Source: a phage
Sequence record: OZ346158.1
Length of the DNA stretch: 64,000 nt
Strand: one strand, 5' to 3'
Shown: positions 1,579 through 26,615 of the stretch, one piece after another
Layout: every line of letters starts with the position of its first letter
How positions within the stretch are numbered: position 1 is the first letter of the stretch
Notes under the pieces: model-generated
What the model saw: only the letters and a program-made list of their open reading frames with translations
Databases searched by the model: none
What the model was told of the DNA's origin: nothing
Translations under genes and position numbers: made by a program

Positions 1579-2361
1579 GCATTAGGAGACAGCAAATTGA
1601 AATTTATCTACAAAGAACACTACCACAAAGGTGTTGTGTGGAGCCTATTTGACGGATCTGGTGGTGCAGTCATTGACTGGGCAAAAGCTGGATATCTGTG
1701 CCTGTGCTTTAACGCAGAAGGTGCTGACCACGGCAGTTATGCAGAGGTGATCACCGATCATCCAAATATTCACTATGTAGATTATTGGATTGATCCATGG
1801 TTCCCTCAGGAAACTTTCTGCATGTACCCAGCTCCGGACTTTGTTCTTGCATTTCCTCCGTGCACCCACTTAGCGGTGTCAGGTGCTGCACACTTTAAGA
1901 AGAAGCTGGCTAAGGACCCGTTGATCCAGATTAATGCTGTAAAGGATGCTCGGGTTGCAGAAGAGTTGGGAGAGATTTACGATTGCCCGTGGCATGTAGA
2001 GAATCCTGTGGGTGTTATGTCCACACTGTGGCGCAAACCTGATTACCGTTTTCACCCTTCTGACTATGGCGGGTATTTACCGGAGGATGATGTAAACCCC
2101 TGGTTTCCTGAATTTATAGCTCCACGTGATGCCTATCCAAAAATAACTTGCGGCTGGATAGGTAATGGATTTATAATCCCGGCCACAAAACCTGTCCCGC
2201 AAATAGTTGACGCGGTTAGCGGGTATTCCATGCAACACGCCAAGCTGGGTGGAAAGAGTGCAAGAACGAAGATGATCCGAAGCCTCACACCACGTGGCTG
2301 GGCAAAAGCCGTATTCTTAGCAAACGAGCCTGTAGTAAGGAGCAGAATTAATGGGAAGTAA
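1567..2361 (+). CDS. DNA (cytosine-5)-methyltransferase-like protein
   Basis: LFDGSGG (motif I FxGxGG), FPPCTHLAVSG (motif IV PC-type), VENPVG (motif VI ENV-like); true start may be TTG near 1597 after aggaga. Confidence 0.6.
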   Translation: MGLFALGDSKLKFIYKEHYHKGVVWSLFDGSGGAVIDWAKAGYLCLCFNAEGADHGSYAEVITDHPNIHYVDYWIDPWFPQETFCMYPAPDFVLAFPPCTHLAVSGAAHFKKKLAKDPLIQINAVKDARVAEELGEIYDCPWHVENPVGVMSTLWRKPDYRFHPSDYGGYLPEDDVNPWFPEFIAPRDAYPKITCGWIGNGFIIPATKPVPQIVDAVSGYSMQHAKLGGKSARTKMIRSLTPRGWAKAVFLANEPVVRSRINGK

Positions 2362-4429
2362 ATTTATGGCATCTGCATACAACCGTTTCGGTGAGCCAAA
2401 CCCGAAAGCAACTAAGTATAAAAGTGGGGGAAGTGTGAAACGAGACTATCGTGATGAAAAAGAGGTTGAAACTGTAGAGACTGTTTTAGAAAATACTAAA
2501 ATTGTCCCTGTTCCACAACAAAATATCGGTCTGATGGCTGCACAATATTTTGGTGTGCGATCAGCATTGTCTCAAGAAGACGGTGTGACAGTTACTGCAA
2601 CATATTTCCCATATTACGACCGCTACGGAAATCTGTCAGGTTTCAAAAAGCGTGACTGGACGATTCCTAAAGAGCAAAGGGGCCATTTCTCAGTTGTTGG
2701 CATAGTAAAGGCTAACTCTCAGATGTTTGGGCAAAAGCTGTGTGCATCTTCCAACAACCGTAAGCAAATTAACGTTTGTGAGGGGGAAGGTGATGTTATT
2801 GCAGCATGGCAGGCTGCATATCAGATACAAGTAAAAGGGATTCTCACCAACGCTAAAGCCCCGGCAAAGGTGAAGCAGTGGGCTAAAGAGGTCCAGGACG
2901 GGATCGATGCAGTTATCAACGGTGGTGATCTGGCAGGAAAACCCTGCCTACCTTTTGTTGGAATTAACTGTGGATGTGCAAACGCAGTAGATACTTTTGC
3001 AAACAATGAGAAGTTTATCCGTAGCTATGGAACAGTTGTGCTGGCAATGGATAACGATGCAGCTAACGAGGTAGAGAAGCAAAAACACGTCATTAAAGGT
3101 GTCGAGGCCACGCACAATATCGCAGCATTTTTGATGGCTGATAACGTTTACCACGTAGAATACCCTGGTGAAGTAAACGACCCTGACGGTGTAAAAGATA
3201 TCCGAGACATGCTGAAGGCTAAAAAGCTGGAAGATATTGTCAACATGTTCCGGCATCCTGTTAAATATGTGCCTGATGCTGTGTCGGATTTAGAAGACTT
3301 CTCTATCGAGTCTTTGCGGAAAAAGACTTCCAACGGGGTAGATATCAGCGCAGAGTTCCCAAAACTGCAAAAAATGCTAAAAGGCTTGCACAAAGGTACA
3401 CTCGTAATGCTTACAGGCCCATCAGGTGGCGGTAAAACAACCGTAGCTAAAAAACTGGAACACTGTATTGCAAGATACCTAATGGACCCGACATGCCCGA
3501 AGGCTGATGACTATGAAGAGGATGATCGTCTATGTATGATCCATCTTGAGGAGGACCCAGAGGAAGCAATTAACTCCTTGTATGCAAACCAGTTAGGGTT
3601 TGATGTTAAAGAGTTTGTTGAAGATCCTAGCCAGTTTTTAACTGATCAAGAACACGCAGAGATTCATCAGTCATGGGCAAAAGCTGGAAAAATCAAAGTG
3701 TTCAAACATTTCGGGTCTATTCCGGTGGATGAGTTGATTACCAAGCTTAAGCAAATGGTTTGCCTGTACCATTGCCGTTATATTGTGCTGGATCACCTGT
3801 CCATGGTAATTTCAGGGCTTAATGTTAAGGATGAGCGAAAAGAACTGGACATGGCTATGACCCAACTGGCTGCGTTTTGTAAGCAGTTTAATGTGTTTAT
3901 CTTGGTGATCGCTCACCTCAAACGTACAGAGATTGTGCCTCCTAAGGACAAGGATGGTAACCCGTTACCTTTCTGGTATCCTGTGCGAAAAGAGAATTTG
4001 CGAGGATCGGCGGGGCTTGAACAGTTGAGTTGGGTAGTCATAGGTGTCGAGGCCGAAGAAATGGTGGATCGTTCTCGTGGACGTGTCCGTCTGGTAGGTC
4101 TTAAAAACCGTCCAGCAAAAACTCTAGGTATTGCTGACACTTTGGTTATGGACCCGCACACAGGTAAGTTCCATGATGCCAGTAATTGGTACTGGGACAA
4201 AGAAATGCAAATGTTTACAGACGGAGAAGGTGGGGAGGTTGTTTGGAGACCTCAGGCTATGTTTGAGGATCAGGAGCATGCAGTTGTAGAAACACCTATG
4301 GGCAAGGTTGTGGCTGATAAGGTTGTAACACCCACTGTCAAGCCTATTGACACGCAGGAAGACCTCCAATACGATGATCCATCCTCTGATCCGGTCCCTG
4401 GTTTTGAGGATGATGAAACACCTTTTTAA
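2351..4429 (+). CDS. DNA primase/helicase (T7 gp4-like; TOPRIM + DnaB-type helicase)
   Basis: CEGEGDVIAAW (TOPRIM E-G-x-x-D), Walker A LTGPSGGGKTT, 692 aa, immediately upstream of DNA polymerase. Confidence 0.75.
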   Translation: MGSKFMASAYNRFGEPNPKATKYKSGGSVKRDYRDEKEVETVETVLENTKIVPVPQQNIGLMAAQYFGVRSALSQEDGVTVTATYFPYYDRYGNLSGFKKRDWTIPKEQRGHFSVVGIVKANSQMFGQKLCASSNNRKQINVCEGEGDVIAAWQAAYQIQVKGILTNAKAPAKVKQWAKEVQDGIDAVINGGDLAGKPCLPFVGINCGCANAVDTFANNEKFIRSYGTVVLAMDNDAANEVEKQKHVIKGVEATHNIAAFLMADNVYHVEYPGEVNDPDGVKDIRDMLKAKKLEDIVNMFRHPVKYVPDAVSDLEDFSIESLRKKTSNGVDISAEFPKLQKMLKGLHKGTLVMLTGPSGGGKTTVAKKLEHCIARYLMDPTCPKADDYEEDDRLCMIHLEEDPEEAINSLYANQLGFDVKEFVEDPSQFLTDQEHAEIHQSWAKAGKIKVFKHFGSIPVDELITKLKQMVCLYHCRYIVLDHLSMVISGLNVKDERKELDMAMTQLAAFCKQFNVFILVIAHLKRTEIVPPKDKDGNPLPFWYPVRKENLRGSAGLEQLSWVVIGVEAEEMVDRSRGRVRLVGLKNRPAKTLGIADTLVMDPHTGKFHDASNWYWDKEMQMFTDGEGGEVVWRPQAMFEDQEHAVVETPMGKVVADKVVTPTVKPIDTQEDLQYDDPSSDPVPGFEDDETPF

Positions 4430-4487: not shown

Positions 4488-6881
4488 ATGAGCATGTGGT
4501 CGTTCGACTTTGAGTCATCCGGTTTGCTGGAAGATCCAGATCTTTATTATCACTGCGGCCTGTTTAAAGAGCTGAATAAGAACCGTTTTATGCTGTTCCT
4601 TCCTCTAAATGACCGCACACACTACTCCGAAGAGGATATAGAGAAGGCTAAGAACTTTATTCTGGCAAAGAAAACTCTTCATAAAGATTTTGAAGTTCGC
4701 ATAGCAGATTTTTCGGAGTTGGAAGGTTGGCTTACAGGCAATTCCGACTGGTCACCAACAGCTTTGAACTGCCATAACTGCTACAGTTATGACTTTATGC
4801 TGATGGAAAGATTATCCGGTATTCATTTTGATATGTTCCGTGATCCTAAATGCATGGGGACTATCAACGACCACCAGGTTAACCTGTTTGATACGTTGGC
4901 TATGAGCCGAATCTTGTGGCCTGATCGCCCTTTACCAAAAGGTTGTCCGGACGCTGTATTCAACCCGGTTACTAAGAAAATGCAACCTGTTGGTCCTCAC
5001 GGCCTTATGGCATGGGGCTACGCCCTTGGTAACCAGAAAGTTCAAATTGATGACTGGCGCGATCTTCCGCTGTGGAAATATGTGGATCGTGTGTTCGAGG
5101 ACGTTATCATCCAGGAGTTGCTCTGGAAAGAGTTGGTAGCGGAATCAAAAGGTGTATTCTACGGCAAATCTGACATGCAGAACTTTATGTATGACCCTGC
5201 CAAAGAGAAGCCTAAAGGATTCAAGAAGATTACCTGGAAGAATGCATTACGCCGAGGCATGCTGCAGCATTTCCTGATGGAGCTGCAGGCTCGACAGGGT
5301 GTGTATTTCGACATAGATGGGGCTATTGCTTTACGTGACCGCTGCGATGCGTGGATGAAAGAGATCGCTGATCGTGTTGAACCACAACTTCCTTTAAAAG
5401 AGTTATCAATGTCTCAGCGGCCTAAGTTCCCTGAAAAGCCGTTTAACCAGGATGGGACAATCTCCAATAATGGTTGGAAATGGTTAAAAGATAAGCTTGG
5501 CTATCCTGTAGACATGAGCGCTTTAGAATTCAAAGCCCCGCCTAAGCGAGCATTTACCTCCACAGGAGATGTCAGCAAGATGGGGATAAAATGGTGCGAA
5601 GAGATGGGCTGCAAAGACCCCGACAAGATGGCTGATTTCTTGAGAGGTTATATTAAGGGCACCTCCACACCACAACCTTTACCTAAAGAGCTGATGGATC
5701 AGGCAATAAGTGATCTGCAGCAGAAGCGAATGCCTGACTGCAAGATACCTATGAAAATCAGCAATCAGGACGACATTAAGCGATACCTGATCAGTGCTGG
5801 TTGGCTTCCGACAATGTGGAGAACTAAGGATGTAACTAAGGACAGCAAGAAGAAAGCTCTACCTGATGCAGATGTTGATGCACGAGTATATGCATACATG
5901 GACGAGCTTTTAGAGTCAGAGTATTGTGACCTAATTATCAACTTCTGGAACAAAACTGATGCTAAGTTTCAGACAACAGTGCACAAGTTCCGAAGCTTTC
6001 CTAACTCCGAAAGGATTAAAAAGGAAGTGTTCGGGAAAATACGCAGAAAAGCCAGGGCACTTATTACTTCTCCGCAACTGAAAGATACGTTTGGACACCT
6101 ATGTCCGAATCTTGAAAAATTGAACGGAGAGATGGCTAAAGATATCGTCTTGTGGTTATCATTGCGAAACCGCAGATCGGTCCTTGATCCAATCAAGGAG
6201 GATAAGGTTGATACTGGTCTTCTTAATCACCCACGTTTGAAGATTGACCATAAGCTTCCTGCTAAAAGCTCTGGATTAACAAACACTTCCCGACAGAAAC
6301 ACAGTATTTGTGCAAACATGCCTAAACCATCTCCTAAAGTGGTTATGGGTAAAGAGATGCGTAGCTTGTGGGGTGTTCCTCCTGGATACTTTGAGATCGG
6401 TATTGACGGGTCCAACTTAGAGCAGCTTATCGGGGCTTGGGGTGCCTTTGAGTTCGACAACGGCTTGTACTATGATGTTGTAAGTAACGGGGACGCACAC
6501 CAAAACAATGCTGAGGCATATACAAAAGTAGCAGGCAGAGAGGTGTCTCGTAACGACGGTAAACCTATCACGTATGGGGTTATGTACGGGGCACAAAAAG
6601 ATAAAGTTGCAGATATGCTGGATATCTCCCCAGAGTTGGGGCAAAGGGTGATCGATGCACTTTGGGATGCCAACCCCGGTCTTAAGGGGCGCAAAGAGGA
6701 TCTGGAGAAATTCTGGGAAGCAACGGGTAAGAAGTTTATCTACTCTTTTGATGGTCATGCCATCTGGACCCGATCTAAACACTCTTTACTTAATGCATAC
6801 CAACAGAATGGTGGTGCATCGCTGTGTGACTTGGTTGGGATACTTATGCACCACCAAATGGTGAAGCGTGGGTGGTACGAT
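4488..6881 (+). CDS. DNA polymerase, family A (T7-like), exon 1 (ORF runs to in-frame stop at 6917 inside the intron)
   Basis: N-terminal 3'-5' exo motif FDFESSG; KPITYGVMYGAQ resembles motif B; tail GASLCDLVGILMHHQMVKRGW aligns with the segment just upstream of motif C in T7 gp5 as recalled. Confidence 0.85.
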
Positions 6882-7753
6882 GAAGGTGTTCGTCGTATTA
6901 TTTATTACCATAAATAACATTGTGGCTTCGTGCAGTGATGCACGTCGAAAACCTCTTTAATTGACGGGAAGGCTAAGTTGACTTTTACACCTAAACATGG
7001 TAAAAGCTCAATATGCTAATCCGCAGCGAAGACTAAAGGGGTGTAGTTAAAATGGCTAGATCAGTTGATTATCACGGATATACCGTGTTTGATGATGGAA
7101 CAATACCTTTATCGAAACGTGATCATACAACAATGTTCTGTTTTGATAATGGTCGAGGTTACCTTTGCGTAACCATGTTCATCGAGGGGAAGCAGTGCAC
7201 AAAAGGTGTCCACCACTTGGTTGCTGAATGCTTTGTATCAAACCCTGATCCTGAAAGGCTCACATGGGTGAACCATAAGGACGGAAACAAATACAACAAT
7301 GCATACTGGAACCTTGAATGGACCACCCCTGGTGGAAATATCAAACACGCTTATGATAATGACCTCAGAGTAAGGCCAGTCGGTGAGTATAATGCCAACG
7401 CTGTACTGACCGAGGATGAGGTAACGGAGATTTGCGAACTGTTACAAAGTGGTTTACGACAATGCGAGATTAGGGATCTTGGGTATCCTTATGAGACGGT
7501 CAGAGCCATAAAGCAAAGAAGACAGTGGAAACATATCTCTAAAAACTACACCTGGTAGTAACGTTCAGAGACTATCGAAAGCATAGCGCCAACATAAATT
7601 GGTGCGAAGAAGCGAGTAGAGTAGGCCAGCAAGTGCGGTCGAAATGGGAGGTGCCTTGGTAACAAGGTAGTGAGATAGTCCGATCCATACAGGAAACTGT
7701 ATGGCTGTGCACGTAATGGTGCGGGGTAGCTTAACGACCTACCTGAACTATTG
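6882..7753 (+). mobile_element. group I intron in DNA polymerase gene (boundaries proposed)
   Basis: Conserved core elements read directly: P-like AATTGACGGGAAGG (about 6958-6971), Q AATCCGCAGC (7018-7027), R GTTCAGAGACTA (7563-7574), S GAGATAGTCCGATCC (7672-7686), P9 hairpin with GAAA loop (7685-7704); in-frame stop just after the 5' junction; HNH ORF between Q and R. Confidence 0.8.
7052..7558 (+). CDS. HNH homing endonuclease (I-HmuI-like), intron-encoded
   Basis: VHHLVAECF...VNHKDGNKYNNAYWNLEW HNH motif; own RBS aaagggg; lies inside the polymerase intron. Confidence 0.85.
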   Translation: MARSVDYHGYTVFDDGTIPLSKRDHTTMFCFDNGRGYLCVTMFIEGKQCTKGVHHLVAECFVSNPDPERLTWVNHKDGNKYNNAYWNLEWTTPGGNIKHAYDNDLRVRPVGEYNANAVLTEDEVTEICELLQSGLRQCEIRDLGYPYETVRAIKQRRQWKHISKNYTW

Positions 7754-14878: not shown

Positions 14879-15129
14879 CGACCATCTTCTGAGGTGATAT
14901 AGTTTCCACAACAACTAAGAGAGGAGAGCACTGTGGAGACTAAAATCTTAATTCTTGCTGTGGTAGATACAACCGAAGGAGCTATATTCGAATCTGCAGG
15001 AGGGTATTTCTACCTACCATACGGAAAAAGAACTTCCGAGCCAAGTAAAGATTCAATCCTCAAAGTGTTCCCGTGTGCTTTCTGGCTGGAGATTTTGGTA
15101 TAAGATTGCAGATGATTTGGGAGAGAATT

Positions 15130-15324
15130 ATGAGAAACAAGAAAGAACTTTACTCTGGTGAGTGGATCAACGATCAACAGGTGGGAGAGGTAACCTGCTT
15201 CCGATGTTTTACCAGGTACAATCTTAAAACTGCACCAAAAAGTGTTCCAAAGACTGATGGTTATTATATAAAAGAACCTCATTGCCCAAAATGTAAATGC
15301 CGATTGTACTGGAGCAATCTGTAA
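15130..15324 (+). CDS. small zinc-ribbon protein
   Basis: CFRCF...CPKCKC paired CxxC; ATG 15130 after gggagag. Confidence 0.45.
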   Translation: MRNKKELYSGEWINDQQVGEVTCFRCFTRYNLKTAPKSVPKTDGYYIKEPHCPKCKCRLYWSNL

Positions 15325-15328
15325 GAGG

Positions 15329-15356
15329 TTGACATCTGAAAACTGCAGTGTATAAT
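15329..15356 (+). promoter_or_regulatory. sigma70-like promoter (TTGACA-16-TATAAT)
   Basis: Perfect -35 and -10 hexamers with 16-nt spacer upstream of gene 15388. Confidence 0.6.
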
Positions 15357-15387
15357 ATACGCATAAACTAACAGAGAGCGATGTATT

Positions 15388-15579
15388 ATGGTAATTTTTA
15401 ACCGAGATGGTATCATAGTTAGACAGCACCCGTTCCTTGAATACTATCAAATTGAGCAATGGTGCTACGGGGATTGCAGTCACTCCTATGGGCAAAGTTG
15501 GGGATACCGTACAGTTTTTGAATCCACAGACCTTGACAAAGTAAGACAGAAAGTTTTAGAACTTATTAACAACAAGTGA
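15388..15579 (+). CDS. hypothetical protein
   Basis: 63-aa ORF downstream of consensus promoter. Confidence 0.5.
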   Translation: MVIFNRDGIIVRQHPFLEYYQIEQWCYGDCSHSYGQSWGYRTVFESTDLDKVRQKVLELINNK

Positions 15580-15586
15580 GTATGAT

Positions 15587-15919
15587 ATGGTAACATTAGA
15601 AAGACGTAAAGCTATTGCCGCCACACTGGCAGACATCTTTTGGGATTGTAATTTAAAATCTACCCGAAATTGTGGCGCATCTGTAGATGTATTATTCCCA
15701 CGGCCTACTATTGTTGCAATGGGCAACCTTCTTGATGTGGTATATGGAGCATGGGACAAGGAAGGTGGATTCTATATCTGGCAACCTGACTACGGGACTT
15801 GGAAAGAGGTTAGTGGTTCTACGGACTTCACTCCTGCAGTGGCTAAAATGGATGGCTGGAAAATCTATGTCGGTAACGACATGGAACTGAAAGGCGAAAT
15901 TGTTTACTGGTTACCTTAA
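15587..15919 (+). CDS. hypothetical protein
   Basis: 110-aa ORF. Confidence 0.5.
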   Translation: MVTLERRKAIAATLADIFWDCNLKSTRNCGASVDVLFPRPTIVAMGNLLDVVYGAWDKEGGFYIWQPDYGTWKEVSGSTDFTPAVAKMDGWKIYVGNDMELKGEIVYWLP

Positions 15920-15939
15920 GAAAGTGCAGGAGATAAAGT

Positions 15940-16185
15940 ATGAACAAAGGGTGGACATTTGTAGACGGCGTTGAAAACATGCCTCTAGGAAAGTATATTG
16001 TAGCCATGGCAGATGAGAATGGCAAGGTTGATTTCGGAGCTTGCGAGATTGTTCTTGCAGGATCTGGTGACCATGTGCACAAAACTGGGATAATTAACGG
16101 TCATTTCTACTTTGATTACAACCCTGTTGTGGCGTATATGGCTATGCCAGAGTTAGAGCTCCCAAAGGAGGGTGCAGATGTTTAA
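15940..16185 (+). CDS. hypothetical protein
   Basis: 81-aa ORF after caggagata. Confidence 0.5.
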   Translation: MNKGWTFVDGVENMPLGKYIVAMADENGKVDFGACEIVLAGSGDHVHKTGIINGHFYFDYNPVVAYMAMPELELPKEGADV

Positions 16186-16375
16186 GCTTAAATCTGCATG
16201 GAACATCGCTGTGGGGGATGAGATCCGCATCCCAGGTGGAAAGACCATTATGAAGATATCACGTATCGAGTATGAAGGTGATCGTGTATTTCATATCTTT
16301 GCAGAAGATGGTCGAGAAATTTATATACAGGCAGGCTCTCACATCTATATCAGTAAGAAAGGGGACGACAAATGA
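16178..16375 (+). CDS. hypothetical protein
   Basis: ATG 16178 after aaggaggg. Confidence 0.5.
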   Translation: MFKLKSAWNIAVGDEIRIPGGKTIMKISRIEYEGDRVFHIFAEDGREIYIQAGSHIYISKKGDDK

Positions 16376-16704
16376 CAGAGATCATCGTTTCAACTGCAGG
16401 GTATGTATTCCTGACAATCATTGCGTTGGCTATTCTGGTGGCGGTGTATGGATTTGTTATCCTGCCTATTCTTGAGACATTTAGCTTGTGTCGGTGTTGG
16501 AGAAAAGCTTACGGACCACAACCGTGGAAAGACTGGTTTCATTTGGTGCGTATAGCGTTCTCTTATGCCTATGATCACTCCAGCAGTGCATGCGTAACCG
16601 GGTACCATGCCTACAACTGGAACTGGGAAGGGCTTGGGAGATGGACTGTTACAAAAACTATACCCTTACGGTTGTATAAAGGAAAGAACACACTGGGAGC
16701 CTGA
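16372..16704 (+). CDS. hypothetical membrane protein
   Basis: Hydrophobic segment AGYVFLTIIALAILVAVYGFVILPIL; start overlaps upstream stop. Confidence 0.5.
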   Translation: MTEIIVSTAGYVFLTIIALAILVAVYGFVILPILETFSLCRCWRKAYGPQPWKDWFHLVRIAFSYAYDHSSSACVTGYHAYNWNWEGLGRWTVTKTIPLRLYKGKNTLGA

Positions 16705-16739
16705 TATTTTAAGTTATCAGATTGCCAGAGATCAGGAGG

Positions 16740-17200
16740 ATTTCTAAAATGGATTTCCTCCTTTTGATATTTTACCTACCAGGATATTTTAAAATCCTTA
16801 GAAAATCAGAAAATGGATCGAAAACTAAAATGGATTTTTCAGAGCAGGCACGACGAGATGAACCACTCATCCTATCGTCTGCACCATATTCCAGACCACC
16901 ATTACAGATTTCCCGCACATGCTCACATCCTTCTACTAGAACTTCCCCCACTTACCCTTGACCTTTTATAGTAATAATCCAACCACTACCTTGAAGTTGT
17001 GGCGCAGCTTTCCAAGTACTCGATCTGTTTTTCGTTTCAAAGATTTAATTTTCTGAAAATTTTTCTCGATAAATTTCTCAGTACTCGATCTGTTTTTCGT
17101 TTTCTGAATCGGATTTTCTGGAAATCGTTCCGGCTCTCGACCTGAAATTTTTGGGGACGAAATCGATTTTTCGTTTTCAGAAATGGATTTTTAAAATTTC
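16740..17200. repeat. AT-rich iteron-like direct-repeat region (AAATGGAT and (T)CTCGATCTGTTTTTCGTTT families)
   Basis: AAAATGGAT at about 16747, 16811, 16827, 17192; CAGTACTCGATCTGTTTTTCGTTT exact at 17014 and 17079 with degenerate copies through 17180; no ORF. Confidence 0.6.
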
Positions 17201-17295
17201 TATATGGGAATATTTTAGTGGATACTATTTTATAGGAAATTGTTACGGAGGGTAATTAGCGTGCTAATTAAATTTATTAAATGCGAGGAGTTCTC

Positions 17296-17530
17296 ATTTA
17301 GAATTTTGAATGATAATCATTCTCGTTTGCAGAATAACGGGCAGGCCCGGTGATTGTCTCCCGGCCCCTACTGCCCCGGCTTGTTATTATAGTAACACAC
17401 AGGACAAAGAAAGCAAGAAGTTTTTGCATAAATTTTTAGACGATAATGATAATCGTTCTCATTTCATGCAGCGCCCATCCCCGGTGGTTGTCTCCCCCGT
17501 CACCGGTGCCTGCCGTCCTTTCAATAGGTA
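17296..17530. repeat. duplicated structured GC-rich element (core CCGGTGATTGTCTCCC)
   Basis: Two direct copies (about 17296-17380 and 17440-17520) each with GATAATC..TTCTC..TTT..TGCAG leader and CCGGTG(A/G)TTGTCTCCC core; inverted third copy near 26461. Confidence 0.55.
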
Positions 17531-17706
17531 TATTTTGCCACCTGGCGGGGCCGCTGTCAACACTTTTCAAAAAAAAAATTCTAACCTGATGCGCTGACCG
17601 CTGCAACCTGGCAGGGCCTAACTGACCAGGTAGGAGAGAATGAAGGCTTGCAAACCTGGTGGGCCTATGCTATAGGATAGGTAACAATTGAAGAGGAGGT
17701 ACAAAA

Positions 17707-17883
17707 ATGGAAGGTAATATGATCCCCCTGGAAAATGTAGCTATTAATGACGCTGAGGCTATCGCCCTGGTTGAAAAGGCTATGGCGGGAGCGTTGGAAC
17801 ATAAAGAAGAGTACGAAAAAATGGTGGTTAACCTGGCAGGGGCGGCGGCTGGAGAATTCTACCCAAAAAATAATTTTAACTAA
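17707..17883 (+). CDS. hypothetical small protein (58 aa)
   Basis: ATG after gaagaggagg RBS; below ORF-track cutoff; TTGCAA-17-TATAGG promoter-like upstream. Confidence 0.45.
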   Translation: MEGNMIPLENVAINDAEAIALVEKAMAGALEHKEEYEKMVVNLAGAAAGEFYPKNNFN

Positions 17884-17968
17884 TGGTTGACAGCTCGGAC
17901 AGTTCTTGTTATTCTTATCCTCGCAAGGTGAACAACACCACACCAATTAACAGAGAGGATAAAAAATC

Positions 17969-18166
17969 ATGAACGCCTACGGAATTAAAGTACGTCGCAA
18001 CACTCGCCAGGTGGTCACCAATCAAGTGATTTGCCGGGTGGATGTAACCATCAACAACGGGCAAGGCCTTTATAAATTTCGTCGCGGTCATAGCTATACC
18101 CTGCAACAGCTTAACCGTTGCGCCCTGACAAAAGGTCAGATCAACCACTGGTTTAATAAAAAATAA
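17969..18166 (+). CDS. hypothetical protein
   Basis: 65 aa; RBS agagaggat. Confidence 0.5.
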   Translation: MNAYGIKVRRNTRQVVTNQVICRVDVTINNGQGLYKFRRGHSYTLQQLNRCALTKGQINHWFNKK

Positions 18167-18168
18167 TG

Positions 18169-18197
18169 TTGACATAGGGTCTGACACAAAATACACT
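18169..18197 (+). promoter_or_regulatory. sigma70-like promoter (TTGACA-17-TACACT)
   Basis: Upstream of gene 18230. Confidence 0.5.
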
Positions 18198-18229
18198 GAA
18201 ATCACAAAAGACACTAAGAGGATAAAATC

Positions 18230-18628
18230 ATGAAAACCACTACCTTTAATTTTGATAATGCGGACTTTTCTTTTTCTGATGTCAAGAACTGCCGCCGTGA
18301 TCGTGGATTTTACAAGGCTTATAATCTGGTGGGCCTGGACGATGACAATAATTTGCACGAAGTAGCTGAGATCCGGTATTATGCCGCCGCCAGTGGTAAC
18401 ACTCACTACTGCGTGTTTTGGATTCACGACAACAAGAACAATAAGTACGGTTATACTGGCGGCAAGGCGAGCGGTCACGGTTACGATAAAGCTAACGCAG
18501 CACTTGAGAGCGCATTAAATGCTATGGGGATCACTGCCGACGGCTGGATCTACGAAGAAGAGTTTTTGTCGGCACTTGCTGACCACCTGGGCTATAAAAA
18601 GCACATTGTGACATGCGCCCACGAATAA
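18230..18628 (+). CDS. hypothetical protein
   Basis: 132 aa; RBS aagaggat. Confidence 0.55.
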   Translation: MKTTTFNFDNADFSFSDVKNCRRDRGFYKAYNLVGLDDDNNLHEVAEIRYYAAASGNTHYCVFWIHDNKNNKYGYTGGKASGHGYDKANAALESALNAMGITADGWIYEEEFLSALADHLGYKKHIVTCAHE

Positions 18629-18711
18629 AAATCATTGACACGCTGCAAAATTTAAGTAAACTAGACACAAAAGGCGGGAATGTTTCCCGCCAGCACAAAG
18701 GAAAAAAGATC

Positions 18712-19107
18712 ATGAATAAGAACGTACGCCGCATCATGAACGAACTGGCAAACGATGAAAAAATTATTGACATGCATTTAGTCAACATTTGCCGCCGTTG
18801 TGTAACATATAACAACCGCGCCGCAAAAGCGCGTGAGATGAACGCAAAAGGCACCTTAAAGCCCTTTCAGGTGGTTGTAAAATCTATAACCAGTGCAGCA
18901 GGCCAGGCGCATGACCACAACAACGGGAGCACTAATATTGATCCGTCTTACGTAATGAAACGGATCCGGACTTGCAAGAATAAAGAGCAGGTGTATAATG
19001 TCATAGACTGGTTGGATTCTATGGGCGATGTGGTTTACAATAGGTTTTCTGCAGCTATCGAGATCCAGCTTGACAGGTTGGACGGTAAAGTACTGAAAAC
19101 TTACTAA
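18712..19107 (+). CDS. hypothetical protein
   Basis: ORF track 18613..19107; ATG 18712 after aaaggaaaaaag; upstream TTGACA at about 18635. Confidence 0.5.
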   Translation: MNKNVRRIMNELANDEKIIDMHLVNICRRCVTYNNRAAKAREMNAKGTLKPFQVVVKSITSAAGQAHDHNNGSTNIDPSYVMKRIRTCKNKEQVYNVIDWLDSMGDVVYNRFSAAIEIQLDRLDGKVLKTY

Positions 19108-19155
19108 GATTATTTTTAGATGGCCTTGACTTCAGGGCCATCAATAAAGTAAACT
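19107..19155 (+). repeat. 48-bp intergenic cassette copy 1 (hairpin GATGGCC-TTGACTTCAG-GGCCATC + AATAAAGTAAA)
   Basis: Near-identical sequence at 19737-19788 and 23478-23527, each directly after a stop codon. Confidence 0.7.
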
Positions 19156-19308
19156 AATCCCAGTTAAGCGAAAAAGGAGGCTTGAAGATGAGCACTACAC
19201 GCCAACACACAAAGGTAACGATTATCGTTTGCATCATTGGTTACATCCTGGCGCAAATGTTGATGGGTAGCGCCAATGATTTCGCAAAATTTTTCTTAGA
19301 CTTTTAAT

Positions 19309-19335
19309 TGACAAGCTAACTTAAATCAGTATAAT
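19309..19335 (+). promoter_or_regulatory. sigma70-like promoter (TTGACA-16-TATAAT)
   Basis: Consensus hexamers upstream of gene 19388. Confidence 0.6.
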
Positions 19336-19387
19336 ACTAAGCACATAAACGGGAAAACTTCCCAGAACACCAAAAGGAGAAAACATT

Positions 19388-19738
19388 ATGAATACTTCCA
19401 TCACTATGACCGCCGAAGAAAAAGCCCTGCAGATCGCCGCTCTGAAAAAACAGATTGCAGAACTTGAAGACAAGATCGACAATTTTGAAATCGACGAAGA
19501 CAAGTACGACGATAAATATGATGAATGGTTAGACGAGATCTACGGCGAAATTATGATCGGAAACATTTCTTTTCTTCCGTCGCGTATCCTCAAGGAGCTA
19601 GATCCTATCGCTTACCGCTGCGGATTTAGCGACTACATCGACAGCCTGGATATTGAGGACGATGAAGAATACCAGGAATTACAGACAGAGTTAGAAGAAG
19701 CAAAAGAAGAGCTTGCAGAACTGGAAGAAAACGAGTAA
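19388..19738 (+). CDS. hypothetical acidic coiled-coil protein
   Basis: 116 aa, highly acidic (E/D-rich), RBS aaaggagaaaac. Confidence 0.55.
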   Translation: MNTSITMTAEEKALQIAALKKQIAELEDKIDNFEIDEDKYDDKYDEWLDEIYGEIMIGNISFLPSRILKELDPIAYRCGFSDYIDSLDIEDDEEYQELQTELEEAKEELAELEENE

Positions 19739-19788
19739 GATTATTTTTAGATGGCCTTGACTTCAGGGCCATCAATAAAGTAAACTTT
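19737..19788 (+). repeat. 48-bp intergenic cassette copy 2
   Basis: Identical hairpin plus AATAAAGTAAACT as copy 1. Confidence 0.7.
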
Positions 19789-19827: not shown

Positions 19828-20073
19828 ATGGCAGCACTAATCACCAAATATTATGCCCCTACCAACACCAAAAGCGCCCGTATCATGGTAAAAGGCTTCG
19901 GACGTAAAAAGGTGTACACCTGGGATTATGCCTTAGACACGGAAGACAACTACACCAACGCGATGACCGATTTTATTAATGATCTGAACACGCGGATCTT
20001 GACAAATTATAAAATTACCGATATTGCCTATATAGGGGAAGGCGGGATCTGTTTTGTCGGTATCGTCAAATAA
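19828..20073 (+). CDS. hypothetical protein
   Basis: 81 aa; RBS ATAGGAGTTAAAACCATGG identical to that of gene 24445. Confidence 0.55.
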   Translation: MAALITKYYAPTNTKSARIMVKGFGRKKVYTWDYALDTEDNYTNAMTDFINDLNTRILTNYKITDIAYIGEGGICFVGIVK

Positions 20074-20148
20074 GCTGTTTTTTCGGTGGTCCTGGTAGCA
20101 GGGCCATCTATAAAGATAGTTTATCAATACAATGAAAGGAGAAAGTAC

Positions 20149-23276: not shown

Positions 23277-23477
23277 ATGAGCAACAATATCCGCGTTATT
23301 AACTTCAAAAAAGAAGAAAAAATTGCCGTGCTGATTGACGGTCAAGAAATCTTTAAAGGTGATTATGAAGATCATCAAACGGCGATTAGTATCACTCGCG
23401 TGATTGGTTACCATAATTTTTACCCTCAAGGCGCTGAGGCAGCAGTAAAACGAATTAAAGAGATTGTAGGCCTGTAA
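23277..23477 (+). CDS. hypothetical protein
   Basis: 66 aa; RBS aaaggagaaac; preceded by GGGGAGACACTCCCC hairpin. Confidence 0.55.
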   Translation: MSNNIRVINFKKEEKIAVLIDGQEIFKGDYEDHQTAISITRVIGYHNFYPQGAEAAVKRIKEIVGL

Positions 23478-23527
23478 AATTTATTTTTAGATGGCCTTGA
23501 CTCCAGGGCCATCAATAAAGTAAATTT
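23478..23527 (+). repeat. 48-bp intergenic cassette copy 3
   Basis: GATGGCCTTGACTCCAGGGCCATCAATAAAGTAAAT, one mismatch relative to copies 1 and 2. Confidence 0.7.
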
Positions 23528-26404: not shown

Positions 26405-26615
26405 TCCTTATAAACTACAAAACAGGGCTTGCAATGGTCCTGTTTTTTGTTATACTTGTTTCACGGCAGGCGCCTGGCGACGGGGGAGACAATCACCGGG
26501 TGTGCCTGCTATATAAAAACTATAAAAACCGTTGACATCTGCCAGGTGGTGGGGTAGCATTTATCTCGAAGGGGGCAAAAGCGCCCACACAACAACCGGA
26601 AGAGAGGAAAACGCC

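What the first reader, a model, noticed from the sequence alone, without database searches (positions are those of the whole stretch)
16740..17200. AT-rich iteron cluster between the replication module and the early-gene block
About 460 bp without ORFs contain repeated AAAATGGAT units and two exact copies of CAGTACTCGATCTGTTTTTCGTTT plus degenerate relatives (TCTCGACCTGAAATTTTTGG, AAATCGATTTTTCGTTTTC). Direct repeats in an AT-rich non-coding tract next to the primase-helicase/polymerase module fit a replication origin, or alternatively a packaging or terminal-repeat boundary.
Basis: partly seen in the sequence, partly recalled or inferred. Interest (0 to 1): 0.5.

Follow-up and report, generated by a model that had tools for sequence, protein, structure and literature searches.

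The report
Conserved repeat module, candidate phage origin
The repeats are real and form part of a roughly 0.9 kb gene-free module kept in the same layout across a whole subfamily of large E. coli-type phages, most likely a replication origin but unproven, and it is not the end of the genome.

Summary
The window is an rV5-like coliphage (Vequintavirus).

**Observation: confirmed.**
- An exact 23-mer occurs at 17015 and 17080, with a third degenerate copy at 17154.
- 17022-17321 is the most AT-rich 300 bp in the 64 kb.
- None of the small ORFs here is conserved.

**What comparison adds.** The tract is one part of a module with fixed geometry in six Vequintavirinae genera, with related versions in Phapecoctavirus and Aeromonas phages:
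- GATATT repeats, then a variable spacer.
- Exactly three homologous 62-74 nt units.
- An AT-rich stretch, then palindromic boxes matching the Fur-box consensus at 14-17 of 19 positions.
- Two promoter-like sites on the opposite strand, aimed back at the repeats.

The first AAAATGGAT lies inside a terminator hairpin.

**Interpretation.**
- The terminal-repeat or packaging reading is refuted. The 459 bp terminal repeat of relatives maps about 11.5 kb downstream.
- The origin reading fits best: promoters firing into AT-rich DNA, as at the T7 origin, with iterons added. No experiment or initiator protein supports it (confidence about 0.4).
- The main rival is an operator array controlling transcription.
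- I found no conserved RNA fold, no Rfam match and no DnaA boxes.
- The polymerase/helicase genes lie about 10 kb away, not next door.

I found no published description of this module.

The parts
16734..16775 (+). Rho-independent terminator of the upstream + strand gene block: AGGAGGAtttctaaaatggattTCCTCCT followed by TTTTGATATTTT. The first AAAATGGAT (16746-16754) lies inside it.
   Evidence: Folds at -14.7 kcal/mol in the window and at -9 to -15 in all 15 genomes. In slur16 the stem changes from GGAGGA/TCCTCC to GGAGAA/TTCTCC, a compensatory change. YP-6 has a different sequence that still forms a hairpin.
16702..16790 (.). Cluster A: three GATATTT motifs at 16703, 16766 and 16783, overlapping the terminator.
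   Evidence: Only 12 + strand GATATTT occur in 64 kb, and 3 of them are here. GATATT occurs 3-6 times at -651 to -459 from the palindromic box in all six Vequintavirinae genera, twice in ESCO13 and once in PhAER-3.
16800..16842 (.). Conserved block AGAAAATCAGAAAATGGATCGAAAACTAAAATGGATTTTTCAGAG with two AAAATGGAT half-units (16810, 16827).
   Evidence: Diversity pi is 0.05 here against 0.2-0.28 on either side. The (A/T)TGGATTTT motif is the 3' sub-motif of repeat units 2 and 3 and of all three Hena1 units.
16843..17010 (.). Variable spacer, C-rich on the + strand, not AT-rich.
   Evidence: Pi is 0.2-0.28, with 1 nt and 2 nt indels among 15 genomes. ORFs across it change frame and length.
17015..17079 (.). 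Repeat unit 1: AGTACTCGATCTGTTTTTCGTTT...CTGAAAATTTTTC.
   Evidence: It is the least conserved unit within the genus, with TG>AC and G>A changes in about half the genomes.
17080..17153 (.). Repeat unit 2: AGTACTCGATCTGTTTTTCGTTTTCTGAATCGGATTTTC...CTGAAATTTTTG.
   Evidence: Pi is 0.01 for 17050-17099.
17154..17225 (.). Repeat unit 3: GGGACGAAATCGATTTTTCGTTTTCAGAAATGGATTTTTAAAATTTC.
   Evidence: Pi is 0.016 for 17150-17199. It contains an AU/GU-rich hairpin flagged as terminator-like on the + strand.
17174..17300 (.). Most AT-rich stretch of the module, a candidate DNA-unwinding element between unit 3 and the palindromic box.
   Evidence: The 60 bp window at 17174 is 80% AT (99.9th percentile). 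The 100 bp window at 17183 is 76% AT, second highest in the 64 kb.
17306..17324 (.). Palindromic box 1, TTGAATGATAATCATTCTC. It contains the 15 bp perfect palindrome GAATGATAATCATTC and resembles a Fur box.
   Evidence: 15 of 19 matches to GATAATGATAATCATTATC. The same position scores 14-17 of 19 in Vequintavirus, Seunavirus, Mydovirus, Henunavirus, Avunavirus, Phapecoctavirus and an Aeromonas phage; POP15 falls below 14. blastn finds this segment in 271 phage records.
17339..17377 (.). GC-rich element 1, with the conserved core GGTGATTGTCTCC.
   Evidence: RNAalifold finds no conserved hairpin.
17386..17416 (-). Weak promoter-like site P1 (TTGCTT, 19 nt, TATAAT). It is the positional counterpart of the - strand P1 site of other genera.
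   Evidence: Read from the sequence. It fails the scan criteria here because of the 19 nt spacer. Sites at +80 to +111 pass the criteria in GAP31, KpS8, POP15, Hena1, L031 and L034, and one at +103 to +131 passes in PhAER-3.
17442..17460 (.). Palindromic box 2, GATAATGATAATCGTTCTC, the second copy of the box plus GC-element unit.
   Evidence: 17 of 19 matches to the Fur consensus. 0.01 hits with up to 3 mismatches are expected in 64 kb.
17470..17516 (.). GC-rich element 2 (CCCGGTGGTTGTCTCCC...). It includes TCACCGGTGCCTGCC, an inverted repeat of 17341-17354.
   Evidence: A third copy lies on the - strand at 26463-26518.
17532..17560 (-). Promoter-like site P2: TTGACA, 17 nt, CAAAAT with an extended -10 TG, firing leftward toward the boxes and repeats.
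   Evidence: A - strand site of 9-12 of 12 matches lies at +224 to +318 from the box in 11 of the 12 scanned loci; PhAER-3 has none there.

Best explanation
The tract is the repeat-bearing core of a candidate replication origin shared by the rV5-like phages.

Shown:
- A module of about 0.9 kb with no conserved gene runs from roughly 16700 to 17560.
- Its order is: terminator of the upstream genes, GATATT repeats, a variable spacer, three homologous units of about 65-74 bp, the most AT-rich DNA of the window, one or more palindromic boxes, and sigma-70-type promoter-like sites on the opposite strand pointing back at the boxes, the AT-rich DNA and the repeats.
- This order and spacing are kept in six genera whose surrounding DNA is otherwise not alignable.

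Inferred mechanism:
- Host RNA polymerase starts at the leftward promoter sites and transcribes into the AT-rich stretch.
- The transcript, or the opening it causes, lets the phage DnaB-type helicase (and the primase assumed to accompany it) and the family A polymerase start DNA synthesis, as at the T7 primary origin.
- The three units and the GATATT cluster bind an unidentified phage or host protein that organises or licenses the complex, as iterons do at lambda and plasmid origins.
- The palindromic boxes, which resemble host Fur sites, would gate transcription into the origin.
For: - Repeats are far above chance and confined to this locus within the window.
- Three-unit arrays of 62-71 nt, spaced about 75 and about 67 nt (76 and 52 in POP15), occur in GAP31, KpS8, Hena1, Avunavirus 19-1-2 and POP15. 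The window's spacing is 65 and 74 nt. The units align to the consensus GGTTCTCGATCGATTTTTCGATTTCnAAATCGTATTTTCT...GAAAAAATTTTT.
- The second sub-motif changes in parallel within a genome. It is GGATTT-type (GGAATT in unit 3) in all three Hena1 units and in window units 2 and 3, and TCGTATT elsewhere. That pattern is expected when sites co-evolve with one binding protein.
- GATATT clusters lie at -651 to -459 from the box in all six Vequintavirinae genera.
- 17022-17321 is the most AT-rich 300 bp in 64 kb.
- - strand promoter-like sites lie at about +80 to +111 and +224 to +318 from the box across genera, including a 12 of 12 consensus site in the Avunavirus (window site also).
- No conserved ORF lies downstream of those promoter sites.
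- Within the genus, units 2 and 3 and the box region vary less (pi 0.01-0.03) than the neighbouring coding sequence (about 0.09).
- The replisome genes are a DnaB-type helicase and a family A polymerase. The rV5 record annotates them as similar to the SIO1 primase/helicase and the T7 polymerase.
- The rV5 authors looked for an origin by skew analysis and could not define one, so no mapped origin competes with this site.
Against: - There is no experimental evidence of any kind.
- No initiator or DNA-binding protein was found. Ten upstream window proteins have no informative Pfam match. The conserved protein of about 275 aa that sits upstream of the module in other genera has no homolog in the window.
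- Unit spacing of 65-76 bp is unlike the 20-24 bp phasing of classical iterons.
- There are no DnaA boxes.
- GC skew falls from about 0.13 to about 0.07 across the module with gene direction unchanged. That is opposite to the simple expectation for a bidirectional origin and may only reflect a change of gene class.
- In pairwise comparison with rV5 the tract is no more conserved than the genome average of 94%.
- In the window P1 has a poor 19 nt spacer, and only P2 passes the promoter criteria.
- All promoter calls are consensus matches only.
Confidence: 0.4

Rival explanations
1. Transcription-control region. The three units, the GATATT cluster and the palindromic boxes are operator sites for a phage-encoded or host regulator. 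The regulator controls promoters at the border between the upstream gene block and the block of small genes at 17.7-28.6 kb, for example by shutting early transcription off or by controlling antisense transcription.
For: - The module sits exactly at a transcription-unit border. A conserved terminator lies at its left edge, and promoter-like sites and the start of a run of small genes with sigma-70-type promoters lie to its right.
- The palindromic boxes lie between a TTGAAT and a CAGAAT hexamer 18 nt apart on the + strand, the usual position of a repressor site.
- A copy of the GC-rich element lies next to another promoter-like site at about 26.5 kb.
Against: - Three composite units of about 70 bp, 70 to 300 bp from the nearest promoter-like site, plus a second repeat cluster 500-600 bp away, is an unusually large operator array.
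- The leftward promoter sites lead to no conserved gene.
- The unit motif occurs nowhere else in 64 kb, so it is not a general promoter or operator element of this phage.
Confidence: 0.25
2. Another DNA-level structural role. The module could be a pause or stop signal for stepwise DNA injection, like the repeat-rich non-coding signal that bounds the first-injected segment of T5. It could instead be a site for DNA condensation or partition, like the tandem repeat units of F sopC.
For: - The module bounds the roughly 11 kb gene block next to one physical end of the genome.
- The tandem units contain palindromic TCGATCGA-type cores and A/T-tract junctions such as GAAAAAATTTTT at about 70 bp intervals. 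That pattern would suit wrapping around a protein.
- A complete Vequintavirus genome has been deposited as a circular 137.6 kb 'plasmid' of an E. coli isolate.
Against: - No two-step injection is known for these phages, and their terminal repeat is only 459 bp.
- No partition genes were seen.
- The comparison with T5 and sopC rests on my own knowledge, not on a test.
Confidence: 0.1
3. Non-coding RNA gene or genes. The leftward promoter sites make a regulatory RNA whose body includes the box, the AT-rich stretch and the repeats, or the + strand makes a small RNA starting at the GC-rich element.
For: - Conserved promoter-like sites are followed by conserved sequence with no ORF.
- 17290-17600 folds somewhat better than shuffles (z -1.95 on the + strand and -2.77 on the - strand).
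Against: - The repeat tract folds no better than shuffled sequence on either strand (z -0.33 and +0.08).
- RNAalifold across 14 sequences from several genera gives -5.4 kcal/mol with a covariation term of -0.29, and no hairpin at the GC-rich element.
- There is no Rfam match at E up to 1 in the window region or in three other genera.
Confidence: 0.08
4. Small protein genes, as annotated in several GenBank records (for example rV5 ORF 199 and ORF 198, and bas55_0098-0100).
For: - ORFs of 34-95 aa exist.
- The one at 16749 follows a strong AGGAGGA ribosome-binding sequence.
Against: - Across 15 genomes the ORF at 16749 is 7 to 99 aa long, with frameshifts.
- The ORF at 16999 has a start codon (GTG or TTG) in only 5 of 15 genomes.
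- In the ORF at 17310 nearly every substitution changes the amino acid, and its length varies from 91 to 132 aa.
- Annotators disagree on which ORFs exist.
- The AGGAGGA is one arm of the terminator stem.
Confidence: 0.03
5. Genome end, terminal repeat or packaging site.
For: The length of the flagged region (460 bp) happens to equal the published terminal repeat length of 458-459 bp.
Against: - EdH4's 459 bp repeat lies at its record ends, and EdH4 position 685 aligns to window 28595. Gotham and bov10K2 align to the window in the same way.
- The EdH4 repeat aligns to JeffSchatz 91999-92457, in DNA that the window lacks.
- It has no similarity to 16740-17200.
Confidence: 0.01

Closest known systems
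Primary origin of phage T7 (tandem promoters phi1.1A/phi1.1B followed by an AT-rich region; own knowledge)
   Same: Promoter-like sites in tandem fire into the most AT-rich DNA of the region. The replisome is built from a DnaB-type helicase and a family A polymerase.
   Different: The promoter sites are host sigma-70 type, because the phage has no RNA polymerase of its own. The AT-rich DNA is followed by three composite repeats and a second repeat cluster, and palindromic boxes lie between the promoters and the AT-rich DNA. T7 has none of these. Function is untested.
Iteron origins of lambda and of plasmids (direct repeats bound by a cognate initiator next to an AT-rich unwinding element; reviewed in PMC4980987)
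   Same: Several direct repeats lie at a single locus next to an AT-rich stretch, and a sub-motif changes in parallel within each genome.
   Different: The units are 62-74 bp composites spaced 65-76 bp apart, not 17-22 bp repeats about 22 bp apart. There are exactly three in every genus. No initiator gene lies next to them or is identified. There are no DnaA boxes.
Phage T4 origins: oriE with short iterons, and oriF/oriG with a promoter plus an unwinding element primed by an R-loop (own knowledge)
   Same: A virulent myovirus with both repeats and promoter-driven entry into easily opened DNA. The leftward transcript would be G-rich just before the AT-rich DNA.
   Different: There is no sequence or protein similarity, and R-loop formation is untested.
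Escherichia coli Fur box, GATAATGATAATCATTATC (PMC2189734 describes clusters of such sites)
   Same: The boxes match 14-17 of 19 consensus positions, are palindromic, occur singly or in clusters of up to four, and are kept at the same position in phages of hosts that share the Fur consensus.
   Different: Many copies carry a symmetric G/C deviation (GAGAAT...ATTCTC), which could instead indicate a different, phage-encoded binding protein. Binding by Fur is untested. I found no report of Fur sites in these phages.
F plasmid sopC and the phage T5 injection-stop region (own knowledge)
   Same: Tandem units tens of base pairs long, each with a palindromic core (sopC). A repeat-rich non-coding tract bounding the gene block next to a genome end (T5).
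   Different: No partition genes and no evidence of stepwise injection. The terminal repeat is 459 bp, not about 10 kb.

Membership tests
Iteron-type replication origin | Multiple direct repeats at a single locus, above chance | tested here: met
   Three units at 17015, 17080 and 17154. The motif has 3 hits against 0.14 expected and occurs nowhere else in 64 kb.
Iteron-type replication origin | Adjacent AT-rich DNA-unwinding element | tested here: met
   17022-17321 is the most AT-rich 300 bp of the window, and 17174-17233 is 80% AT. Actual unwinding was not tested.
Iteron-type replication origin | Cognate initiator protein that binds the repeats, usually encoded nearby | tested here: not met
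   Ten upstream proteins have no informative Pfam match. The conserved upstream protein of other genera has no Pfam family and no homolog in the window. Binding itself cannot be tested here.
Iteron-type replication origin | Supports initiation of replication (copy-number peak, autonomous or phage-dependent replication) | not testable with these tools
   This needs marker-frequency sequencing or plasmid assays.
Iteron-type replication origin | Short repeats of about 17-22 bp phased about two helical turns apart | tested here: not met
   Units are 62-74 bp with 65-76 bp spacing in all genera.
T7-type transcription-primed origin | Promoter or promoters firing into an AT-rich region | tested here: inconclusive
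   Consensus - strand sites are positionally conserved in all genera. In the window only P2 (17560-17532) passes the criteria, and activity is untested.
T7-type transcription-primed origin | Primase-helicase plus family A polymerase replisome | tested here: inconclusive
   2351-4426 matches DnaB_C and AAA_25 above their cut-offs. 4488-6914 matches DNA_pol_A at 27.9 bits, below the curated cut-off of 34.3. The rV5 annotation calls them similar to the SIO1 primase/helicase and to the T7 polymerase.
Direct terminal repeat or packaging boundary | Coincides with the physical genome ends | tested here: not met
   The ends of EdH4, Gotham and bov10K2 align about 11.5 kb downstream, next to window 28595. 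Published repeats are 458-459 bp.
Fur-regulated operator | Match to the 19 bp Fur consensus | tested here: met
   17 of 19 at 17442 and 15 of 19 at 17306. 0.01 hits with up to 3 mismatches are expected by chance. Other genera score 14-16 of 19 at the same position, except POP15.
Fur-regulated operator | Bound by Fur and iron-responsive | not testable with these tools
   This needs a gel-shift or ChIP assay and infection of a fur mutant or of iron-starved cells.
Fur-regulated operator | Overlaps the -35/-10 region of the controlled promoter | tested here: inconclusive
   Box 1 fills the 18 nt spacer of a + strand TTGAAT...CAGAAT pair kept in most genera. That pair scores only 8 of 12, and KpS8 has CTGAAT. 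Relative to the - strand P1 site the box lies about 60-80 nt downstream.
Rho-independent terminator (first AAAATGGAT copy) | GC-containing stem-loop followed by a T run, kept across relatives | tested here: met
   16734-16775, -14.7 kcal/mol, followed by TTTTGATATTTT, with a compensatory stem change in slur16.
Known RNA families (Rfam 15) | Covariance-model match | tested here: not met
   No match at E up to 1 in window 15000-19500, none at gathering score in the whole window, and none in three other genera.
DnaA-dependent origin | DnaA boxes TTWTNCACA | tested here: not met
   Five boxes in 64 kb (8.3 expected), and none between 16500 and 17800.

The most novel reading that the evidence does not exclude
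The module is an origin whose firing is gated by the host iron regulator. Fur would bind the conserved palindromic boxes that lie between the primer promoters and the unwinding and repeat tract, coupling the start of phage DNA replication (or the early-gene switch) to the iron status of the cell. This would hold across the Vequintavirinae and related phages of Escherichia, Salmonella, Klebsiella, Cronobacter, Pectobacterium, Erwinia and Aeromonas. A variant is that the box clusters act as decoys that draw Fur away from host promoters.
Probability: 0.1. Interest if true: 0.8.

Novelty: new variant of a known kind. Interest (0 to 1): 0.55.

Why it matters
- **Open question.** The origin of replication of rV5-like phages is unknown. 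The rV5 authors tried skew analysis and could not place it. These phages are widely used for biocontrol and therapy of pathogenic E. coli and Salmonella.
- **A testable target.** This work delimits a single module of about 0.9 kb with fixed geometry across a subfamily. That gives a precise target for marker-frequency mapping, deletion and protein pull-down.
- **A link to host iron.** If the Fur-like boxes are real host-factor sites, they would connect virulent phage development to host iron physiology.
- **Annotation clean-up.** Many 'hypothetical protein' annotations in this region of GenBank records are probably spurious.

Tried and rejected
- **Terminal repeat.** Tested by aligning record ends of EdH4, Gotham, bov10K2 and JeffSchatz to the window, and rejected.
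- **Known RNA families.** No Rfam hit in the window or in three other genera. No tRNA or tmRNA in the window.
- **RNA structure.** The repeat tract folds no better than shuffles. The box and GC-rich element show no covariation-supported structure.
- **Host origin of the sequence.** No blastn match in 5,426 E. coli genomes.
- **General promoter motif.** The unit motif is unique in 64 kb.
- **Exceptional conservation.** Only partly true. Pairwise identity to rV5 is ordinary. The claim rests on the 15-genome diversity profile and on conservation between genera.
- **Candidate binding protein.** Pfam and PHROGs on neighbours here and in other genera gave nothing useful.
- **GATC (Dam site) enrichment in the units.** Two- to five-fold in four genera, absent in Hena1 and ESCO13, and weak here, so not a defining feature.
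- **A second genomic copy.** The '2 places per record' in the BLAST tables is most likely the off-diagonal match between units, not a second locus.
- **Literature.** No paper on an origin, iterons, transcriptome or Fur sites of these phages was found. One search was badly specified and wasted.

Full report
**Identity of the window.** The region 16300-17700 matches 122 phage records, nearly all Escherichia phages of the genus Vequintavirus (rV5-like myoviruses). Identity is 98-99% to JeffSchatz, C12 and the bov10K2 group. + strand genes fill 1-28.6 kb and - strand genes the rest. The helicase (2351-4426, DnaB_C and AAA_25) and the family A polymerase (4488-6914) lie about 10 kb upstream of the finding. 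The finding sits in a gap of about 1 kb after a 110 aa gene that ends at 16704. The next gene all records agree on starts at 17707.

**The observation.**
- The exact repeat is 23 nt (AGTACTCGATCTGTTTTTCGTTT, at 17015 and 17080).
- The core motif is far above chance and occurs nowhere else in 64 kb.
- The repeat tool aligns three copies, spaced 65 and 74 nt.
- AAAATGGAT occurs at 16746, 16810 and 16827, with a variant at 17181.
- 17022-17321 is the most AT-rich 300 bp of the whole window.
- ORFs exist mechanically and are annotated differently in almost every record.
- Across 15 genomes, the ORF at 16749 ranges from 7 to 99 aa with frameshifts. The ORF at 16999 has a start codon in only 5 of 15. 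Almost every substitution in the ORF at 17310 changes the amino acid. I treat the region as non-coding.

**Not the genome end.** Vequintaviruses have direct terminal repeats of 458-459 bp (EdH4 and HdK5 in PMC6563267; Gotham in PMC7471380). EdH4 carries that repeat at both record ends, and its position 685 aligns to window 28595. Gotham and bov10K2 align in the same way. The physical end is therefore about 11.5 kb downstream of the finding. That the flagged region is 460 bp long is a coincidence.

**Variation within the genus.** In an alignment of 15 Vequintavirus genomes the region splits into distinct blocks:
- A conserved block at 16740-16840.
- A highly variable spacer at 16843-17010 (pi 0.2-0.28, with 1 nt and 2 nt indels).
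- A well-kept stretch at 17050-17550 (pi 0.01-0.06, against about 0.09 in the adjacent coding sequence).

Unit 1 is degenerate in about half the genomes, while units 2 and 3 barely vary. Pairwise identity to rV5 is not exceptional against a genome mean of 94%, so the within-genus argument is only moderate.

**The first AAAATGGAT has its own explanation.** It lies in the stem and loop of a hairpin, AGGAGGA...TCCTCCT, followed by TTTTGATATTTT. The hairpin folds at -14.7 kcal/mol. It is kept in all 15 genomes, has a compensatory stem change in slur16, and is replaced by a different hairpin in YP-6. This is the terminator of the upstream gene block.

**The decisive evidence is between genera.** A 75 nt segment just right of the finding (17291-17365) is found by blastn in 271 phage records from other genera, almost always in unannotated DNA. 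I fetched the loci from these phages:
- Phapecoctavirus ESCO13
- Seunavirus GAP31
- Mydovirus KpS8
- Certrevirus POP15
- Henunavirus Hena1
- an Aeromonas phage (PhAER-3)
- an Avunavirus (19-1-2)
- ten IMG/VR contigs

The five other Vequintavirinae genera (GAP31, KpS8, POP15, Hena1, 19-1-2) each have exactly three tandem units of 62-71 nt upstream of that segment. Spacings are 76/67, 74/67, 76/69, 75/67 and 76/52 nt, against 65/74 in the window. ESCO13 and PhAER-3 have AT-rich direct repeats in the same place, but they are not clearly homologous to the units.

All 18 units align to GGTTCTCGATCGATTTTTCGATTTCnAAATCGTATTTTCT...GAAAAAATTTTT. Between GAP31 and KpS8 the units are similar position by position, so the triplication is old. 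The second sub-motif is GGATTT-type (GGAATT in unit 3) in all three Hena1 units and in window units 2 and 3, and TCGTATT elsewhere. Sites that track one binding protein would behave this way.

Further left, GATATT motifs occur 3-6 times at -651 to -459 from the box in all six Vequintavirinae genera, twice in ESCO13 and once in PhAER-3. The window's three are at 16703, 16766 and 16783.

**To the right of the units.** Each genome has one to four palindromic boxes. In the window these are GAATGATAATCATTC within 17306-17324, and 17442-17460. They match the E. coli Fur consensus at 14-17 of 19 positions at the same place in nearly every genus. A GC-rich element with the core GGTGATTGTCTCC follows.

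Scanning with fixed sigma-70 criteria finds - strand sites at about +80 to +111 in six of the nine non-Vequintavirus loci scanned (PhAER-3 has one at +103 to +131). It finds sites at +224 to +318 from the box in 11 of the 12 scanned loci, including a 12 of 12 consensus site in the Avunavirus. The window's site is 17560 to 17532. Both classes point leftward, toward the box, the AT-rich stretch and the units, against the direction of all flanking genes. No conserved ORF follows them.

In Vequintavirus the box plus GC-element unit is duplicated. It replaces a GC-rich segment that the other genera share.

**RNA explanations are weak.**
- The repeat tract folds no better than shuffled sequence on either strand.
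- The consensus fold of the box and GC-rich region across 14 sequences is -5.4 kcal/mol, with almost no covariation.
- Rfam finds nothing.

The constraint therefore looks like it acts on DNA.

**What it most likely is.** The layout is promoter-like sites firing into the most AT-rich DNA of the region, followed by protein-binding repeats, at a single locus, in a phage with a DnaB-type helicase and a family A polymerase. It most resembles a transcription-activated origin such as the T7 primary origin (my own knowledge of T7), with iterons added.

Arguments against:
- No initiator was found.
- The unit spacing is atypical for iterons.
- There are no DnaA boxes.
- The GC-skew change across the module does not help.
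- Every promoter call is a consensus match only.

An operator array at the border of two transcription units explains most of the same facts. I give the origin model 0.4 and the regulatory model 0.25. Structural roles, RNA genes, small proteins and the genome end follow at lower values.

**Literature.** I found no paper describing this module, an origin, a transcriptome or Fur sites for these phages. The rV5 paper states that skew analysis did not define an origin.

Noticed in passing
window 28595|28596: Similarity to every relative breaks sharply here. Compared with JeffSchatz the window lacks 6,479 bp (record 91788-98266). That stretch holds the DNA matching the 459 bp terminal repeat, its non-coding surroundings and about 17 small genes. 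None of the listed records, nor the plasmid-filed genome, shares this junction. It could be a natural deletion (some 'complete' records are about 131 kb) or an assembly join.
   Followed up: partly
window 17306-17324 and 17442-17460: Two palindromic boxes match the E. coli Fur-box consensus at 15 and 17 of 19 positions. The same box is kept in 271 phage records across several genera, with up to four in a row in ESCO13. I found no report of Fur sites in these virulent phages.
   Followed up: partly
window 26463-26518 (- strand): A third copy of the GC-rich element (CCCGGTGATTGTCTCCC...) lies in inverted orientation next to a + strand TTGACA, 17 nt, TAGCAT promoter-like site inside the small-gene block. 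The element therefore seems to travel with promoters.
   Followed up: partly
window 19105-19155, 19736-19786, 20071-20121, 23476-23526: A 51 nt intergenic cassette is repeated four times, two copies identical: TAAGATTATTTTTAGATGGCCTTGACTTCAGGGCCATCAATAAAGTAAACT. It is a GC hairpin with a TTGACT hexamer inside it, probably combined terminator and promoter units between small genes.
   Followed up: no
L022 2120-2270, L023, L021, L024, L025, L027 (not in the window): The other genera share a GC-rich segment, ACTACCGGCGATCCACCTTCCRACC...GGTAYGTTAGCCCCGCCTTTWCGCCGTGGGGTGGCG. It lies downstream of the strong - strand promoter-like site and is preceded by tandem CTTTACA motifs. There is no Rfam match. 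Vequintavirus lacks it.
   Followed up: no
CP057073.1 (locus L039): A complete Vequintavirus genome, 99.7% identical over the module, is deposited as a circular 137,565 bp non-mobilizable 'plasmid' of E. coli RHB39-C03 from cattle faeces. This is either phage carry-over in the culture or a carrier state.
   Followed up: partly
GenBank MG0656xx records: Sixteen to nineteen unannotated records named 'Campylobacter phage' are 91-99% identical to this coliphage genus, so their host label is doubtful.
   Followed up: no
window about 29.8 kb (- strand): Relatives annotate a ribosome hibernation factor (sigma-54 modulation/S30AE family) gene just right of the junction.
   Followed up: no
unit arrays of GAP31, KpS8, POP15, Avunavirus 19-1-2 and L034: GATC (Dam) sites are two- to five-fold enriched inside the three units in these genera. 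They are absent from the arrays of Hena1 and ESCO13, and only two occur in the window's array.
   Followed up: yes
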